Source of the DNA: a virus
Lineage: Duplodnaviria; Caudoviricetes
DNA: 64,000 nucleotides
Strand: one strand, 5' to 3'
IMG/VR virus record: IMGVR_UViG_3300005077_000001
Span: 160,001-224,000 of that record
Of the stretch, positions 33,090 through 62,409 are shown piece by piece. The first letter of the stretch is position 1. Each line of letters begins with the position of its first letter. The notes under the pieces were generated by a model. That model did no database searches, was not told where the DNA came from, and saw nothing but the letters and a program-made list of their open reading frames with translations. The translations under genes were made by a program, and so were the position numbers.

Positions 33090-33331
33090 TATTAGATCCT
33101 ACTTATAAGATAGATAAAGAGAACAGAAAAGTACGCCCTGAGAAAAAAGGATATGTAGTTTTTATTGAATTGAAAACTGGAGATAGAATTATAGGTAGGA
33201 TAGTGAAGTCAGATTCTACAACTCTATATGTAGAAACTTTAAATGAACCTAAAATTATAAAAGATGTGCATCGTGTATTTATAAAAAGGAGATTTGTAAT
33301 ATTGGAAGGAGGCAAAGGTGACAGAAAATAA
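33086..33331 (+). CDS. Small Sm/LSm/Hfq-like fold protein
   Basis: VFIELKTGDRIIGRIVKSDSTTLYV (Sm1-like) and VFIKRRFVI (Sm2-like). Confidence 0.45.
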   Translation: MILDPTYKIDKENRKVRPEKKGYVVFIELKTGDRIIGRIVKSDSTTLYVETLNEPKIIKDVHRVFIKRRFVILEGGKGDRK

Positions 33332-34706
33332 TAACATGCCAATGGAAGAGATTATTCAATCTCTTATTAAACAAGGGTATCAGATTACTAAACCCGAAGA
33401 TAGAAAGAAGAAAATAAAATTAATTTTTTATGGTGATTCCCCTACTGTAGCTACTGGCTTTGGAACTGTAAGTAGGAATATTTTGTTAGGGCTATTTAGT
33501 ACAGGAATGTATGACATTCAAGTATTTGGTGTCAACTATATGGGACAACCACATAATTTTCCATTCCATATTTATCCTATGATCTTAAATAATGAAAAAG
33601 ACCCATACGGAAGAAAGTATTTTGAGAATTTATTACCTCAATTAGATTTTGATATTCTATTGATGAATCAAGATAGTTTTATAATTAAAGATTTCTTAAG
33701 AGGAGCTATTAATGAAAGTAGAAATAGAGGAAAAAGATTTAAAACAGTAGTATATTTTCCAGTAGATGGGAAGCCTAAGCGAGATTGGATAGAGTCTATG
33801 AGTTTATGCGATCAGCCTATAACTTATACTAAATGGGCCCAGAAACAATGTATTTCTGTATTTCCAGACATTAATGATAAATTAGATTATGCATATCATG
33901 GTGTAAATATGGAAAATTTCTTTCCATATCCAGACGATGTGAGAAAACAACTAAGGCAACGATATTTTAATAAACATGCAGATAAGTTTATTATCCTTAA
34001 CTTAAATAGAAATCAGCCTAGAAAAGATATTCCCAGGAGTGTTGCTGCTTTTAAGGAATTTAAAAAAGATTATCCTAATAGTGTTTTGTACTTGCATATG
34101 GCTGTAGTAGATTTTGGTTGGAATATGGCAGAAGTATGTAACCAATTTGACTTAGTTGTTGGAGAAGATGTACTGTTTCCTAATCCAGAAACATTTACTA
34201 CACAATCTGGGTTTCCTATACATGTAGTTAATGAGCTTTATAATTGTGCTGATGTTTGTATTTCTACTACTTTAGGTGAAGGGGTAGGTCTTTCATTACT
34301 TGAAGCAATGGCATCTAAAACTCCGTTCATTGGTCCTAACAACACTGCTTTATCTGAATTATTAGATGAAGGAAGAGGCTATTTAGCAGAATGCTTTAAT
34401 AATAAATCTATGTTTGTTGTTCTTTCTCATGATAACGATGTTGTAAGACCACTCACAGACGTTTACTCTATGGTAAAACAATTAAAGAAGGTATATGATA
34501 ATCCTGATAAGGCAAAGATAACAGCTGAGCGTGCTTATAAATGGGTTAAAGATAATTTATCTTGGGAAAAAAACATAGTTCCTATTTTTCATAATCATAT
34601 TTTAAAATTATATGATGACTTACAATCAGCTGGAGTTATACTGCCCACTATTGAAGGACCAGCTATATTACAAAAGCCTGACTGGAAGAAAGGAGAGGTT
34701 GTTTAA
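33318..34706 (+). CDS. Glycosyltransferase family 4 (GT-B)
   Basis: GDSPTVATGFGTV; NLNRNQPRKDIP; TTLGEGVGLSLLEAMA. Confidence 0.9.
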   Translation: MTENNNMPMEEIIQSLIKQGYQITKPEDRKKKIKLIFYGDSPTVATGFGTVSRNILLGLFSTGMYDIQVFGVNYMGQPHNFPFHIYPMILNNEKDPYGRKYFENLLPQLDFDILLMNQDSFIIKDFLRGAINESRNRGKRFKTVVYFPVDGKPKRDWIESMSLCDQPITYTKWAQKQCISVFPDINDKLDYAYHGVNMENFFPYPDDVRKQLRQRYFNKHADKFIILNLNRNQPRKDIPRSVAAFKEFKKDYPNSVLYLHMAVVDFGWNMAEVCNQFDLVVGEDVLFPNPETFTTQSGFPIHVVNELYNCADVCISTTLGEGVGLSLLEAMASKTPFIGPNNTALSELLDEGRGYLAECFNNKSMFVVLSHDNDVVRPLTDVYSMVKQLKKVYDNPDKAKITAERAYKWVKDNLSWEKNIVPIFHNHILKLYDDLQSAGVILPTIEGPAILQKPDWKKGEVV

Positions 34707-35851
34707 TGTCAGATACTACAACAAAAGGAATTAAATTTCATAGCTCATTTTTGGATGGTTCAGGCTATGGGAAATTTGGTAGAGATTTTTTAAAATTACT
34801 AATTAAAAAAAACATCCCTGTTTCAACAGGTATTGTTACTTTTGAGAAGGAAAATCAAAGACCAAATTTAGGGGATTATGGAAAACAAATTGAAGCATTA
34901 TCGGAAGTTAATATACAGTCTGATATTATATTGAGTGCTTTAACCCCAGATATAGCTATTAGGTTTATTGACCCGTCAAAGGTAAATATTAATTGGTTTT
35001 TTTGGGAATGTCAAGAAGGGATTCACCCTCTATGGGCCGATTGCTTGCAGAAGTTTGATGCTATAATAACTAGTTGTGAATCAGCTAAGCAATGCCTAAT
35101 TTCTTCTGGTATTCAAACTCCTATTTATGTTGTTCCGGTTAATATGGAGTTTAATAAATACATCCCAAAAGAAAAGCCCAATTTGGATGATACATATAAT
35201 TTTTATTCAATTTTTCAATGGCAAGAAAGAAAAAACCCATTTGGGTTACTTAAAGCTTACTTTAGAGCTTTTAGTGATAAAGATAACGTTATGCTTGTTC
35301 TGAAAACTTATTTAACTAGAATGCAGAATGATTTAAATCAACAGGATATGATAAAGAACTATCTTAATGGGTTAAAACAAACTATGCAATTTAATAAGGG
35401 ATTTCCTAAAGTCTATTTAATTACAGATGTATTGTCTGACGAAGAAATAGAAAATATGCATAATGAACTAGATTGTTATGTGTCTATGGATAGAGGAGAG
35501 GGGTGGTCTCTTCCTTGTGAAAATGCTATGCTTGCTGGCAATCCTGTTATAATTCCTAAGCATACTTCTTATTTAGACTATACAAATGAAGATTTAGTCT
35601 ATTACATAGAAGGTCAATTGGAACCAACATTTGGACTTACTCCATTTTACCCTGGTGATATTTGTACTTTTTTCAATCCTAGCATTCTTGAGGGCGCTGA
35701 AAGAATGAGGTATGTGTTTGAAAATCGTGAAGAAGCTTTCGAAAAAGGAGCTAAATCAAGAGAGTATATAATGCAGAATTTTAATGAGGATAAAGTGTTC
35801 AACACTTTTGTTAAGTCTATTATTGATATAGTTAAATCTAAAAGGAGGTAA
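34706..35851 (+). CDS. Glycosyltransferase family 4 (GT-B)
   Basis: SGYGKFGR; FQWQERKNP; DRGEGWSLPCENAMLAGNPVI. Confidence 0.88.
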   Translation: MSDTTTKGIKFHSSFLDGSGYGKFGRDFLKLLIKKNIPVSTGIVTFEKENQRPNLGDYGKQIEALSEVNIQSDIILSALTPDIAIRFIDPSKVNINWFFWECQEGIHPLWADCLQKFDAIITSCESAKQCLISSGIQTPIYVVPVNMEFNKYIPKEKPNLDDTYNFYSIFQWQERKNPFGLLKAYFRAFSDKDNVMLVLKTYLTRMQNDLNQQDMIKNYLNGLKQTMQFNKGFPKVYLITDVLSDEEIENMHNELDCYVSMDRGEGWSLPCENAMLAGNPVIIPKHTSYLDYTNEDLVYYIEGQLEPTFGLTPFYPGDICTFFNPSILEGAERMRYVFENREEAFEKGAKSREYIMQNFNEDKVFNTFVKSIIDIVKSKRR

Positions 35852-61298: not shown

Positions 61299-61462
61299 CA
61301 GGTTATGTAACAAAAGAACTTATAGAAAGGATGATTTATGAAATGCCTAAAATGTGTAATGCGGATTTAAAAATATACATTTCTAAATCTGAAGCAGAGT
61401 TTTTAGAGAGTAAAGGTTTAGTAGTTAGAAACAATCCGATATTTGTTGTTGGAGAAAGATAA
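61295..61462 (+). CDS. Hypothetical 55-aa protein (not in ORF track)
   Basis: Translated by hand: MTGYVTKELIERMIYEMPKMCNADLKIYISKSEAEFLESKGLVVRNNPIFVVGER; ATGA and TAATG overlaps at its two ends. Confidence 0.6.
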   Translation: MTGYVTKELIERMIYEMPKMCNADLKIYISKSEAEFLESKGLVVRNNPIFVVGER

Positions 61463-62409
61463 TGCGGTATTTATTAATAGGCGGTGCTGGATTTTTAGGA
61501 CAAGCACTAACAAAACAGCTATTAAAAACTAAAGGTGTAAAAGTTGCCATAATGGATAACTTTAGTTATTCTGATCCTGATGATATGATGAAAGATCCAC
61601 GAATAGAAACTAGCTACGGAGATGCTGGAAGCCAAGCTTCATTTCAATCCGCTGTAAATCGATTTAGTCCTGATATAGTAATACATATGGCAGCTTTTCA
61701 TGCTTTTAATTCTGGATCAGATCCAAGATTAGAAACGGCTAGAGTAAGTAATGGCCTATTGCATATCATTCCTTTGATCTCACGTAAAAGACCTAAATTA
61801 TTTATATATACTTCAGCAGATTTTGCCTATATGCGTAATGCTAAAATTAAATCTTACACTGAATCAGATACCCTTAACTGGGGAACATCTGATACTCATT
61901 CGATGCAGAAAGTCATAGGGGAATGGTATACCGTAGCTAATTGTAAACGATACAGAATTCCTTACATGATTATACGCCCATCTTATTTGATTGGTAATCG
62001 TAATTATGCTAACTCGTTTATAGATCCAGTAATTTTCATGATAGAAAGCTTATTACAAGAAAGACCTTTTATTCTTACTAGACCAGACCAAAAACGTGAC
62101 TATATTCATGTTGAAGATGCTGCTAAAATGATAGCAGGTTTAATTCGTTCTGAACAATATAATACTTATTATAATATAAGTACTGGAAAAGGTGTATCTA
62201 ACAGAGCATTGTTTGCAAAAATATCTAAGTTACTAGATATAGGGAGTGAAGCACAAGTAGTAGAAAGCAAAGAATTAGATTTAGTACTGAATAATTCAAA
62301 AGCTATGAGCCTTATTAAACCAATAGAATTCAAACCTGTAATTGAAACGTTATCAAACATCATTTCCTATAGGAGGAGCCTACGTGTTATTCCAGAAGAA
62401 AGCGAATAA
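61462..62409 (+). CDS. NAD-dependent epimerase/dehydratase-like SDR with atypical active site
   Basis: GGAGFLG, HMAA, IRP..LIG, KRDYIHVED; HSMQK in place of YxxxK. Confidence 0.8.
   Translation: MRYLLIGGAGFLGQALTKQLLKTKGVKVAIMDNFSYSDPDDMMKDPRIETSYGDAGSQASFQSAVNRFSPDIVIHMAAFHAFNSGSDPRLETARVSNGLLHIIPLISRKRPKLFIYTSADFAYMRNAKIKSYTESDTLNWGTSDTHSMQKVIGEWYTVANCKRYRIPYMIIRPSYLIGNRNYANSFIDPVIFMIESLLQERPFILTRPDQKRDYIHVEDAAKMIAGLIRSEQYNTYYNISTGKGVSNRALFAKISKLLDIGSEAQVVESKELDLVLNNSKAMSLIKPIEFKPVIETLSNIISYRRSLRVIPEESE

What the first reader, a model, noticed from the sequence alone, without database searches (positions are those of the whole stretch)
33318..62409. Phage-encoded pathway for a sulfated, methylated glycan with unknown acceptor
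Seen: about 19 genes on one strand - two GT4, four GT2-like, one CgeB/exostosin-like GT, two novel DxD paralogs, Gmd, an Fcl-like enzyme, three more SDRs, an HddA-like kinase, two SAM methyltransferases, a sulfotransferase and APS kinase. Also seen: no Wzx/Wzy/ABC flippase, no obvious lipid-carrier enzyme and no recognisable multi-pass membrane GT in the window. Established: Gmd + Fcl make GDP-fucose-type sugars; CysC makes PAPS for sulfotransferases; autonomous glycosylation is known in giant eukaryotic viruses and some phages. Inference: this phage builds its own decorated oligosaccharide in the cytoplasm. Candidate acceptors are the giant S/T/N-rich virion proteins at 1-23 kb or the phage DNA (the cluster is interleaved with ruvC, rnhB, a RecB-like nuclease and polA). 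A sulfated glycan coat or sulfated glyco-base would be a new anti-defence or immune/predation shield.
Basis: partly seen in the sequence, partly recalled or inferred. Interest (0 to 1): 0.88.

Follow-up and report, generated by a model that had tools for sequence, protein, structure and literature searches.

The report
Jumbo-phage factory for sulfated, methylated glycan
A 256-kb uncultured tailed phage, and at least five related giant phages, carry a conserved block of about 25 genes that should make activated heptose and deoxy-sugars, string them together with nine soluble sugar transferases and decorate them with methyl and sulfate groups, most likely on the virus particle itself, which would be the most elaborate sugar coat yet inferred for a bacterial virus.

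Summary

New points:
- The block is syntenic in at least five other jumbo-phage contigs (211-545 kb). It always lies between DnaJ-RuvC and PolA, with variable decorating genes.
- The conserved sugar core is not GDP-fucose. It is a Campylobacter-capsule-like GDP-heptose route: an HddA-like kinase, a strong Cj1427-like C4-dehydrogenase, and an "Fcl-like" enzyme whose Ser107 and His179 equivalents are replaced.
- A true Gmd is found only in this phage and carries an intact 343-aa intein.
- The genome has no priming transferase, flippase, polymerase or ATP sulfurylase, and no DNA "hook" enzyme (thymidylate-synthase-type hydroxymethylase, C5-methylase, DpdA).
- Homologues of the lead GT4 sit inside or beside the head-gene modules of small isolated phages.

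Reading: an autonomous cytoplasmic glycosylation system, with virion proteins the likeliest acceptor (about 0.45), host-envelope remodelling second, and DNA unlikely.

Giant eukaryotic viruses have predicted analogues, including APS kinase plus sulfotransferase. My literature searches found no phage case. This scan has noted smaller phage sulfation cassettes on other DNA.

Verdict: new variant of a known kind, interest about 0.7.

The parts
33318..34706 (+). GT4a, the lead GT-B glycosyltransferase and the most conserved GT of the block
   Evidence: PF00534 40.3 bits and PF20706 30.8 bits. Best PDB match is chlorovirus B736L 3oy2, E 1.7e-6. 47-53% identical orthologues in all five relatives. 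38% identical to the Tetrasphaera phage TJE1 GT.
34706..35851 (+). GT4b, second GT-B glycosyltransferase
   Evidence: PF00534 18.8 bits, weak. 37-40% identical orthologues carry clear PF00534/PF13692 hits in L012.
36304..38307 (+). GDP-mannose 4,6-dehydratase (Gmd) interrupted by a 343-aa LAGLIDADG intein (36844-37872); found only in this phage among the clade
   Evidence: PF16363 379 bits in two stretches; TIGR01472 371 bits. The intein has Ser1, a C-terminal His-Asn and Ser+1, and splits FNHE|SPRRG. Relatives have no hit above 75 bits.
39022..39891 (+). GT2a, GT-A glycosyltransferase
   Evidence: PF00535 22.7 bits. 36-46% identical orthologues in relatives.
39911..40930 (+). Myb + LAGLIDADG homing endonuclease (selfish insert, not a pathway enzyme)
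   Evidence: PF14528. One of about 14 paralogs in the genome.
40882..41865 (+). CgeB / Glyco_trans_1_2-type glycosyltransferase
   Evidence: PF13524 31.9 bits and PF24785 25.3 bits. Orthologues in all relatives.
41865..42875 (+). Myb + LAGLIDADG homing endonuclease
   Evidence: PF14528 and PF00961.
42823..43542 (+). SAM methyltransferase (Methyltransf_23 type), probable sugar O-methyltransferase
   Evidence: PF13489 37 bits. Orthologues in L012, L013 and L016.
43552..44262 (+). SAM methyltransferase (Methyltransf_24, TylF/CmcI-like)
   Evidence: PF13578 32.2 bits. Orthologues in all relatives, duplicated in L012.
44263..45132 (+). DxD1, member of a rare, unnamed GT-A family
   Evidence: No Pfam or PHROG hit. 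Only 12 clusters in 1.84 billion representatives. Invariant H-x-D-x-D motif. AF2 model pLDDT 88; GT-A neighbours are the LH3 GT domain, B3GNT2 and COLGALT1.
45122..46048 (+). DxD2, paralog of DxD1
   Evidence: 33% identity, E 1e-53. 46-51% identical orthologues in L012, L013 and L016.
46070..46786 (+). PAPS-dependent sulfotransferase (Sulfotransfer_1 type)
   Evidence: PF00685 28.5 bits. Motifs PKSGTH and RHPLD. AF2 model (pLDDT 71) matches cytosolic sulfotransferases, TM 0.57-0.67. Orthologues at the same position in L013 and L016.
46780..47289 (+). APS kinase (CysC); makes PAPS from host APS
   Evidence: PF01583 89.6 bits and NF004041 112.5 bits. Orthologues in L013, L014 and L016. No ATP sulfurylase or CysD in the genome.
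47292..48275 (+). SDR1, Cj1427-like nucleotide-sugar C4 dehydrogenase
   Evidence: PDB 6vo6/6vo8, E 1.4e-71, 245 bits, against 72 bits for the next hit. 44-71% identical orthologues in all relatives. The equation of 6vo6 with Cj1427 is my recollection.
50409..51452 (+). Fcl-like SDR; probably a 4-reductase, not a canonical GDP-fucose synthase
   Evidence: NF047922 174 bits against a cut-off of 500. Best PDB matches are human and E. coli GDP-fucose synthase. Tyr-x3-Lys and the Cys109 equivalent are kept, but Ser107 is Gly and His179 is Trp, conserved across the clade.
51454..52320 (+). SDR3, short RmlD-like reductase or epimerase
   Evidence: PF01370 40.9 bits. Orthologues in all relatives.
52304..53377 (+). 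LAGLIDADG homing endonuclease
   Evidence: PF14528 and PF00961.
55829..56815 (+). HddA-like GHMP sugar kinase (D-glycero-D-manno-heptose 7-phosphate kinase type)
   Evidence: NF049969 86 bits. PDB 3k85 E 1e-27, WcbL 4usk E 8.5e-20, 4n3o E 2.9e-16. 49-58% identical orthologues in relatives, always preceded there by an HddC-like NTP transferase that this genome lacks.
56816..57733 (+). GT2b, GT-A glycosyltransferase
   Evidence: PF00535 33.6 bits. PDB chondroitin synthase 2z86, E 3e-5. Orthologues 46-55% identical.
57750..58817 (+). GT-A-like glycosyltransferase (355 aa)
   Evidence: No Pfam hit. Atlas feature neighbours are viral GT2 clusters, score 0.97. Orthologue in G002.
59044..59955 (+). 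GT-A-like glycosyltransferase (303 aa)
   Evidence: No Pfam hit. Atlas structure neighbours are GT2 proteins, TM 0.69-0.74. Orthologue in G002.
61462..62409 (+). SDR4, further nucleotide-sugar epimerase or reductase
   Evidence: PF01370 104 bits and PF04321 48 bits. Orthologue in G002 between the PD-(D/E)XK nuclease and PolA.

Best explanation
The block is a virus-autonomous, cytoplasmic glycosylation system that is conserved in a clade of sheath-less jumbo phages.

1. Donor supply (enzyme identities shown, chemistry inferred).
[quoted passage not shown] The HddC-like guanylyltransferase found in every relative is missing here. A ManC-like enzyme at genome 240506-241651 may substitute for it.
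- The Cj1427-like SDR1 oxidises C4 of the GDP-sugar.
- The Fcl-like SDR and SDR3/SDR4 epimerise or reduce the 4-keto sugar to one or more unusual heptoses.
- In this phage alone, ManC-like plus an intein-bearing Gmd add a GDP-4-keto-6-deoxymannose branch that gives a 6-deoxyhexose.

2. Assembly (inferred). Nine soluble glycosyltransferases build an oligosaccharide without a lipid carrier: two GT4, one CgeB-like and six GT-A, including a rare new DxD family.

3. Decoration (inferred). Two SAM methyltransferases O-methylate the glycan and a PAPS-dependent sulfotransferase sulfates it. The phage APS kinase raises PAPS from host-made APS.

4. Acceptor (inferred, least certain). Phage structural proteins, giving the virion a negatively charged, methylated glycan coat that would mask it from receptors, antibodies, proteases or grazers.
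For: - Gene identities.
- Phage origin and conservation: the same gene order and the same phage flanks (clamp, RecA, DnaB, primase, DnaJ, RuvC ... PD-(D/E)XK, PolA, NrdD/G) recur in L012, L013, G001 (545 kb), G002 (260 kb) and G003 (211 kb), at 30-71% protein identity.
- Heptose route: the kinase best matches HddA/WcbL structures. The relatives' NTP transferase best matches HddC 6jq8/5xhw. SDR1 scores 245 bits against 6vo6. The function of Cj1427 is described in PMC10680097.
- Sulfation is recurrent in the clade: sulfotransferase plus APS kinase in the window, L013 and G003; a cluster sulfotransferase in G002; APS kinase in G001.
- Autonomy from the envelope: no protein in the genome has more than 4 predicted TM segments, and there is no Bac_transf or Glycos_transf_4 hit.
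- Virion acceptor: the GT4a homologue of Synechococcus phage S-CBS4 lies between the portal and the prohead protease/major head protein, with a second GT and a methyltransferase. That of Tetrasphaera phage TJE1 lies with an NTP transferase, an SDR and a methyltransferase just upstream of terS/terL/portal. The best solved relative of GT4a is a chlorovirus GT.
- Precedents: mycobacteriophage virion glycosylation (Freeman 2023, cited in PMC12691614) and Megavirinae fibril clusters with APS kinase and sulfotransferase (PMC10117803).
Against: - No glycan, sulfate or acceptor has been observed. The phage is uncultured and no sequencing run could be listed.
- The block sits with replication genes, not with structural genes.
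- GmhA, a clear GmhB and HddC are absent from this genome, so the heptose branch depends on the host or on the weak ManC-like enzyme.
- The structural neighbours of the sulfotransferase are small-molecule SULTs, so a carbohydrate acceptor is not shown.
- Structural proteins are only moderately Ser/Thr-rich.
- A further GT4 fusion protein next to two orphan 4-TM proteins in the early region could link glycan work to the membrane.
- The relatives were found through cluster genes themselves, so 'clade-conserved' is biased towards carriers.
Confidence: 0.5

Rival explanations
1. Host-envelope remodelling. The soluble phage glycosyltransferases and decorating enzymes act on the host's own undecaprenyl-linked or lipid-A-core intermediates at the inner face of the membrane. 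The host's priming enzyme, flippase and polymerase or ligase then export a changed capsule, O-antigen or S-layer glycan. The changed surface could block superinfection or protect the infected cell during a long latent period.
For: - GT2/GT4 enzymes, modified heptoses, O-methyl and sulfate groups are typical of capsule and LPS chemistry (PMC10680097).
- HddA-like kinases are annotated in Caulobacter phage Cr30 and in cyanophages, next to GT or heptose-epimerase genes.
- Elsewhere the genome encodes a 756-aa GT4 fusion protein beside two 4-TM paralogs, and a SemiSWEET sugar transporter.
Against: - No priming transferase, flippase, polymerase or ABC exporter is found in 256 kb.
- Nine GTs are many for editing an existing polymer.
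- GT4a homologues in small phages lie in or next to head modules.
- No integrase or lysogeny module was looked for or seen, so lysogenic serotype conversion has no support.
Confidence: 0.25
2. DNA hypermodification. The glycan, or part of it, is attached to a modified base of the phage genome as an anti-restriction shield, possibly sulfated.
For: - The block is embedded among replication and repair genes (RuvC, RNase HII, PD-(D/E)XK, PolA).
- The genome has a dNMP kinase, a YfbR-like 5'-deoxynucleotidase and an NT5C-like HAD enzyme.
- GT4a also passes the PF20706 'GT4 in conflict systems' threshold.
- In G002 the gene inserted between GT4a and GT4b has a Mom-family domain, 38.6 bits.
Against: - The genome has no thymidylate-synthase-family hydroxymethylase, no C5 DNA methyltransferase, no TGT/DpdA and no Tet/JBP hit. 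The Tet search had no positive control.
- ThyX, UDG, a Dam-like methylase and an N4/N6 methylase paired with an EcoO109I-like nuclease suggest ordinary bases protected by methylation.
- As far as I recall, known DNA glycosylation uses one to three GTs, not nine plus methyl- and sulfotransferases.
Confidence: 0.05
3. Another soluble product. The pathway makes a free or lipid-anchored sulfated oligosaccharide or glycoside, or glycosylates host cytoplasmic proteins, to reprogramme or protect the infected cell.
For: - All enzymes are soluble.
- The nearest folds to the sulfotransferase are small-molecule sulfotransferases such as SULTs, StaL and SOT18.
- No acceptor gene can be identified in the block.
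Against: - Nine GTs conserved over deep divergence fit a defined polymer on a macromolecule better.
- I know of no precedent.
- GT4a homologues lie in head-gene contexts.
Confidence: 0.18
4. Not phage at all: a bacterial capsule or LPS island mis-binned or chimerically assembled into a viral contig.
For: Many enzymes have their nearest named relatives in bacterial capsule pathways.
Against: - The same block has the same phage genes on both sides in five independent contigs from different samples.
- GC content and strand bias are uniform across the window.
- Phage-type homing endonucleases are spread through the block and through the rest of the genome.
Confidence: 0.01

Closest known systems
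Megavirinae fibril-glycosylation clusters (Moumouvirus australiensis ma457-ma468, Cotonvirus, Tupanvirus)
   Same: One virus-encoded cluster combines nucleotide-sugar dehydratases, epimerases and reductases, many GTs and sugar methyltransferases with an APS-kinase-containing enzyme and a sulfotransferase. There too, sulfation is only predicted (PMC10117803).
   Different: - The host is eukaryotic.
- The pathways are UDP-amino-sugar pathways (Qui2NAc, diNAcBac), not GDP-heptose or GDP-mannose pathways.
- A bifunctional ATP sulfurylase/APS kinase is used, whereas the phage has only APS kinase.
- No sequence-level orthology was tested.
Chlorovirus capsid glycosylation (PBCV-1 Gmd + GMER, A064R GT/methyltransferase; NY-2A B736L)
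   Same: - Virus-encoded Gmd plus a GMER-type enzyme, soluble GTs and O-methylated sugars, with no use of the host's membrane glycosylation machinery (my knowledge).
- The best solved relative of GT4a is B736L.
   Different: - The phage 'Fcl-like' enzyme lacks the Ser107 and His179 equivalents.
- Gmd is not conserved in the phage clade.
- The phage adds heptose and sulfation modules.
Mycobacteriophage virion glycosylation (Freeman et al. 2023)
   Same: Phage-encoded GTs, with an O-methyltransferase in some clusters, glycosylate capsid and tail-tube proteins and blunt antibody recognition (cited in PMC12691614 and PMC12619734).
   Different: - As I recall, these systems have two to four genes and no phage-made nucleotide sugars, heptose or sulfate.
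- Their genes lie beside structural genes, whereas here about 25 genes lie in the replication region.
Campylobacter jejuni capsular heptose modification pathway (HddA/HddC, Cj1427, Cj1430, Cj1428)
   Same: HddA-type kinase, HddC-type transferase (in relatives), a strong Cj1427-like C4 dehydrogenase and GMER-family reductases. The biochemistry is in PMC10680097.
   Different: - No GmhA, no recognisable cupin C3/C5 epimerase and no capsule export genes.
- The context is viral.
- HddC is lost in this genome.
Phage DNA glycosylation (T-even glucosyl-hmC; TET/5mC-based and other DNA glycans, Pyle 2024, cited in PMC12619734)
   Same: Phage-encoded GTs located among DNA-metabolism genes.
   Different: No base-hook enzyme is present, and there are far more GTs and decorating enzymes.

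Membership tests
Virus-autonomous glycosylation system (chlorovirus / mimivirus type) | The virus encodes its own nucleotide-sugar synthesis enzymes | tested here: met
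   Gmd, Cj1427-like SDR1, Fcl-like SDR, SDR3, SDR4 and HddA-like kinase in the window, plus a ManC-like enzyme outside it.
Virus-autonomous glycosylation system (chlorovirus / mimivirus type) | Several virus-encoded soluble glycosyltransferases and no dependence on lipid-carrier or export machinery | tested here: met
   Nine GTs without TM segments. The genome has no Bac_transf or Glycos_transf_4 hit and no protein with more than 4 TM segments. Use of host machinery cannot be excluded.
Virus-autonomous glycosylation system (chlorovirus / mimivirus type) | The glycan is attached to virion proteins | not testable with these tools
   Only indirect evidence: GT4a homologues lie in or beside the head modules of S-CBS4 and TJE1.
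GDP-L-fucose de novo pathway (ManC, Gmd, Fcl/GMER) | GDP-mannose 4,6-dehydratase | tested here: met
   TIGR01472 371 bits in two pieces around an intein with canonical splice residues. The score is under the 415-bit cut-off only because of the split.
GDP-L-fucose de novo pathway (ManC, Gmd, Fcl/GMER) | GMER with the Ser107-Tyr136-Lys140 triad and the Cys109/His179 epimerisation pair (E. coli numbering, from my knowledge) | tested here: not met
   Tyr, Lys and Cys are present. Ser107 is Gly and His179 is Trp (Tyr in G003), conserved across the clade. NF047922 scores 174 bits against a cut-off of 500.
[quoted passage not shown] | HddA-type heptose 7-phosphate kinase | tested here: inconclusive
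   The best family and the best structures are HddA/WcbL (86 bits; E 1e-27), but the score is far below the 600-bit equivalog cut-off.
[quoted passage not shown] | GmhA isomerase, GmhB phosphatase and HddC guanylyltransferase | tested here: not met
   The genome has no SIS_2 hit. The HAD protein has no NCBIfam match. HddC-like genes precede the kinase in all four relatives but are absent here. Only a ManC-like enzyme is present.
[quoted passage not shown] | Cj1427-type C4 dehydrogenase | tested here: met
   E 1.4e-71 and 245 bits over the full length to PDB 6vo6/6vo8; the next hit scores 72 bits. That 6vo6 is Cj1427 is my recollection; the PDB title is the generic gene annotation.
PAPS-dependent sulfation module | Sulfate activation: ATP sulfurylase (Sat or CysDN) | tested here: not met
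   The genome has no PF01747 or PF01507 hit. APS must come from the host.
PAPS-dependent sulfation module | APS kinase, and a sulfotransferase with 5'-PSB and 3'-PB motifs | tested here: met
   PF01583 89.6 bits. The sulfotransferase has PKSGTH and RHPLD motifs and a SULT-like predicted fold.
Bacterial Wzx/Wzy- or ABC-dependent capsule / O-antigen locus | Priming phosphoglycosyltransferase, flippase or ABC exporter, and polymerase | tested here: not met
   The flanks are phage replication genes in six contigs.
Phage DNA base glycosylation | An enzyme that creates the hydroxymethyl or other hook on a base (dCMP/dUMP hydroxymethylase, C5-methylase + TET, DpdA) | tested here: not met
   Searches were negative with working controls. 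The Tet_JBP search was negative but had no positive control.
Class 1 intein with homing endonuclease | Ser/Cys at position 1, C-terminal His-Asn, a nucleophile at +1, two LAGLIDADG motifs, and insertion in a conserved host-protein motif | tested here: met
   aa 181-523 of the Gmd ORF: Ser1 ... His-Asn | Ser+1, with a PF14528 hit. It restores FNHESPRRG on removal.

The most novel reading that the evidence does not exclude
Virions of a whole clade of jumbo (211-545 kb) sheath-less phages are coated with a phage-made, lipid-carrier-independent oligosaccharide. The glycan would contain modified heptose and, in this phage, a 6-deoxyhexose, and would be O-methylated and O-sulfated. This would be the first sulfated glycoprotein coat of a bacterial virus. 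It would be built partly by an undescribed GT-A family, and its variable decorating genes would evolve like an O-antigen locus under selection from hosts, grazers or immune systems.
Probability: 0.4. Interest if true: 0.85.

Novelty: new variant of a known kind. Interest (0 to 1): 0.7.

Why it matters
- Phage virion glycosylation was shown only in 2023, and only for simple glycans in mycobacteriophages. My literature searches found no description of phage-encoded sulfation.
- A conserved block of about 25 genes shows that large phages can carry glycan machinery as complex as that of giant eukaryotic viruses.
- It gives concrete enzymes to test: a Cj1427-like dehydrogenase, a variant GMER, a new GT-A family, and a sulfotransferase with its own PAPS supply.
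- Phage "cysC" and "LPS/heptose" auxiliary genes seen in metagenomes may serve virion or infected-cell glycan decoration rather than host metabolism.
- A charged glycan coat would bear on phage-host recognition, on phage survival in guts or sediments, and on the immune clearance of therapeutic phages.

Tried and rejected
- Single-protein scans of viral contigs with DxD1 and with the sulfotransferase found nothing. Relatives appeared only through the exhaustive protein search, exact-protein contig look-ups and an alignment-based scan.
- The contig of sulfotransferase homologue P0015 was 'not on record'. It was recovered as G003 by another route.
- No public sequencing run could be listed, so expression and DNA modification could not be examined.
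- Rfam gave no hits in the window, so there are no recognisable introns or riboswitches.
- PHROGs gave nothing for the unnamed GTs.
- The Tet_JBP genome search is uninformative as a negative, because no control genome rang.
- The two 4-TM early proteins have no Pfam family and no homologues, so a GtrA- or ArnEF-like role can be neither supported nor excluded.
- I considered that the phage belongs to the published 'moraphages' (Bacteroidota jumbo phages with four core GTs and DnaJ; PMC12619734). I rejected this: there is no tail sheath hit, the polymerase is family A, and TerL is nearest to Bacillus siphophages.
- I could not confirm from a held paper that PDB 6vo6 is Cj1427.
- A literature search for glycosylation of TJE1 or S-CBS4 virions was unproductive.
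- The conserved 81-aa ORF upstream of GT4a looked like a possible acceptor. By eye its alignment looks like a small beta-barrel (Sm/KOW-like) protein, not a Ser/Thr-rich carrier.

Full report
**What the DNA is.** The window is bases 160001-224000 of a single 256,335-bp IMG/VR virus record that CheckV rates 97% complete. GC content is about 31%, GC skew is positive throughout, and almost all genes from about 42 kb onward are on the + strand. Upstream of the finding lie large structural proteins with concanavalin-like domains, then a sliding clamp, RecA, DnaB, primase, DnaJ and RuvC. Downstream lie PolA, ThyX, a Dam-like methylase, a SemiSWEET, NrdD/NrdG, a YfbR-like nucleotidase, UDG, an N4/N6 methylase with an EcoO109I-like nuclease, a second RNase HII, a ManC-like protein, a HAD enzyme and a dNMP kinase. 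PolA is about 29% identical to crAss-like phage polymerases. TerL is about 26% identical to TerL of Bacillus siphophages. There is no tail-sheath hit. This is a sheath-less jumbo phage, not bacterial DNA.

**Observation check.**
- The four proteins with no Pfam hit (the DxD1/DxD2 pair and the 355-aa and 303-aa proteins) are GT-A-like by language-model and structure neighbours.
- DxD1 and DxD2 are true paralogs: 33% identity, E 1e-53.
- Their family has only 12 clusters among 1.84 billion representative proteins and an invariant H-x-D-x-D motif.
- A confident AF2 model (pLDDT 88) has as nearest solved folds the GT-A domains of LH3, B3GNT2, COLGALT1 and WbbM, at TM about 0.45-0.55. It is a new, rare GT-A family.
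- The sulfotransferase has both PAPS-binding motifs and a SULT-like predicted fold.

The block is 90% coding on the + strand, and small Cys-rich ORFs fill the gaps.

**Corrections to the sugar chemistry.**
- SDR1 (47292-48275) matches PDB 6vo6/6vo8 at E 1.4e-71 (245 bits); the next hit scores 72 bits. I recall these as the coordinates of C. jejuni Cj1427. [quoted passage not shown]
- The best structural matches of the GHMP kinase are HddA of Bacteroides thetaiotaomicron, WcbL of Burkholderia and C. jejuni HddA.
- In every relative, an NTP transferase sits directly upstream of the kinase. For L012 its best solved match is the HddC-type '6-deoxy-D-mannoheptose pathway protein'.
- The 'Fcl-like' enzyme aligns end to end with human and E. 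coli GDP-fucose synthase. It keeps Tyr-x3-Lys and the Cys109 equivalent. However, it has Gly at the Ser107 position and Trp at the His179 position, and this pattern is conserved in all clade orthologues (Tyr in one). It should not be filed as Fcl. A 4-reductase, or an enzyme with altered epimerase chemistry, is more likely.
- A true Gmd exists only in this phage: relatives give at most 75 bits against 379 bits here. It is interrupted by an intact 343-aa LAGLIDADG intein exactly within FNHE|SPRRG.
- This genome has lost the HddC-like gene, with no remnant. It has instead a ManC-like protein at genome 240506-241651 (PDB 2x5s E 6.5e-12; TIGR01479 53 bits).
- There is no GmhA.

The conserved donor route of the clade is therefore a GDP-heptose modification route that starts from a host heptose phosphate. 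This phage has added a GDP-mannose to 6-deoxyhexose branch.

**Conservation.** Exact-protein look-ups and an alignment-based scan found five further contigs:
- L012, 22 kb;
- L013, 35 kb;
- G001, 545 kb;
- G002, 260 kb;
- G003, 211 kb.

All show the same order: (clamp-RecA-DnaB-primase)-DnaJ-RuvC-small ORF-GT4a-GT4b-GT2a-CgeB-like-MT-DxD-MT-[sulfotransferase(s)/APS kinase]-SDR1-Fcl-like-SDR3-small ORF-RNase HII-[HddC-like]-kinase-GT2b-GT-A-GT-A-PD-(D/E)XK-SDR4-PolA-NrdD/G. Protein identity is 30-71%.

Decorating genes vary:
- one to three DxD copies;
- two to four methyltransferases;
- a GNAT or Mom-like insert between GT4a and GT4b in G002 and G003;
- Sulfotransfer_1 plus APS kinase in the window, L013 and G003;
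- an extra Sulfotransfer_2 in L013 and G003;
- a cluster Sulfotransfer_2 without APS kinase in G002;
- APS kinase in G001.

A conserved core with a variable decoration set is what one expects of a surface glycan under diversifying selection. One caveat applies: the relatives were found through cluster genes, so the sample is biased towards carriers.

| Looked for | Result |
|---|---|
| Thymidylate-synthase-family hydroxymethylase | none |
| C5 DNA methyltransferase | none |
| TGT/DpdA | none |
| Tet/JBP | no hit, but no positive control |
| GmhA | none |
| ATP sulfurylase or CysD | none |
| Bac_transf or Glycos_transf_4 priming enzyme | none |
| ORF with more than four predicted TM segments | none |

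Leads outside the window:
- a SemiSWEET (PF03083, 34 bits), which could import a sugar;
- on the minus strand of the early region, a 756-aa protein with a complete C-terminal GT4 domain (106 bits) next to two orphan 4-TM paralogs.

**Acceptor.**
- DNA is unlikely, because there is no hook enzyme and the genome carries a canonical-base toolkit with its own methylases and a restriction enzyme.
- Host-envelope editing cannot be excluded, because soluble GTs could act on host lipid-linked intermediates.
- Virion proteins are favoured for three reasons.
  1. The best solved relative of GT4a is a chlorovirus GT.
  2. In Synechococcus phage S-CBS4, the GT4a homologue lies between the portal and the prohead protease/major head protein, with a second GT and a methyltransferase. 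In Tetrasphaera phage TJE1, the 38%-identical homologue lies with an NTP transferase, an SDR and a methyltransferase immediately upstream of terS/terL/portal.
  3. The only demonstrated or well-argued cases of lipid-independent viral glycan factories decorate particles: mycobacteriophages, chloroviruses and Megavirinae.
- The structural proteins here are only moderately Ser/Thr-rich, so composition adds little.

My split is: virion proteins 0.45, host envelope 0.25, other soluble target about 0.2, DNA 0.05.

**Comparison with the known, and novelty.** The nearest analogue in gene content is the Megavirinae fibril cluster. It also combines sugar-nucleotide enzymes, GTs and methyltransferases with an APS-kinase-containing enzyme and a sulfotransferase, and its sulfation is likewise unverified (PMC10117803). 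The known phage precedent, mycobacteriophage virion glycosylation, is much simpler. Three full-text searches found no paper describing phage-encoded sulfotransferase plus APS kinase in a glycan cluster. Earlier notes of this scan report smaller phage sulfation and glycosylation cassettes on at least 15 other genomes. So phage sulfation recurs within this scan, but I found it nowhere in the literature I searched. I class the finding as a new variant of a known kind: virus-autonomous glycosylation in a jumbo-phage clade, with a heptose route, a new GT-A family and sulfation.

**Limits.** Nothing here shows that a glycan is made, what it is, or where it goes. Several assignments are below curated equivalog cut-offs (HddA-like, ManC-like, Fcl-like). 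The 6vo6 = Cj1427 equation and the GMER residue numbering rest on my memory. No expression data could be obtained.

Noticed in passing
window 36844-37872 (within Gmd 36304-38307): An intact 343-aa intein with a LAGLIDADG homing endonuclease sits in a sugar-nucleotide enzyme, exactly in the FNHE|SPRRG motif. Gmd itself is absent from the five related phages, so the gene and its intein look recently acquired.
   Followed up: yes
window 49181-50008: The DUF1848 gene is one reading frame interrupted by an in-frame TAG at 49397-49399, where I would expect Trp from my recollection of the family motif (not checked against homologues). The genome has no suppressor tRNA (four tRNAs only) and the giant ORFs are open in the standard code. 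It is a nonsense mutation, an assembly error or a local read-through. The gene is absent from the relatives' clusters.
   Followed up: partly
window 54366-55286: A 306-aa paralog (33% identity) of the N-terminal ATPase domain of the phage's own large terminase (genome 61865-63544) lies between RNase HII and the heptose kinase. G001 has an orthologue at the same place. In this phage it occupies the region where the relatives have the HddC-like gene.
   Followed up: partly
window 3516-4451, 39911-40930, 41865-42875, 52304-53377 and about 10 more sites in the genome: A family of about 14 Myb-domain + LAGLIDADG homing endonuclease genes is scattered through the genome. Homologous endonucleases occupy different sites of the glycan block in the relatives.
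   Followed up: partly
genome 28765-32102, minus strand (outside the window; L008:765-4102): A 756-aa protein with an unknown N-terminal half and a complete GT4 domain (106 bits) lies next to two orphan paralogous 4-TM proteins (141 and 144 aa) in the early region. This may be a membrane-linked glycan function separate from the main block.
   Followed up: partly
genome 231652-231918 (L005:7652-7918): An 88-aa SemiSWEET-type sugar transporter (PF03083, 34 bits) is encoded by the phage. It might feed the sugar kinase.
   Followed up: partly
genome 238252-239878 (L005:14252-15878) and 230312-231112: The phage carries its own restriction-modification pair (an N4/N6 DNA methylase plus an EcoO109I-like endonuclease) and a separate Dam-like methylase.
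   Followed up: no
genome 94057-95502 (L009:1057-2502): A 481-aa membrane-anchored PAS sensor histidine kinase is encoded within the phage structural region. L013 has a stand-alone response-regulator receiver gene inside its glycan block.
   Followed up: no
L015:2027-4003 (G002) and L016:4567-6342 (G003): The large ORFs inserted between GT4a and GT4b in the relatives end in a Mom-family domain (38.6 bits) or a weak GNAT domain. This may be sugar acylation, or a hint of DNA modification. This phage has no equivalent.
   Followed up: no
window 33086-33331: An 81-aa ORF overlapping the start of GT4a is conserved in four phages (about 33% identity). By eye its alignment looks like a small Sm/KOW-like beta-barrel, but no fold search was run.
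   Followed up: partly
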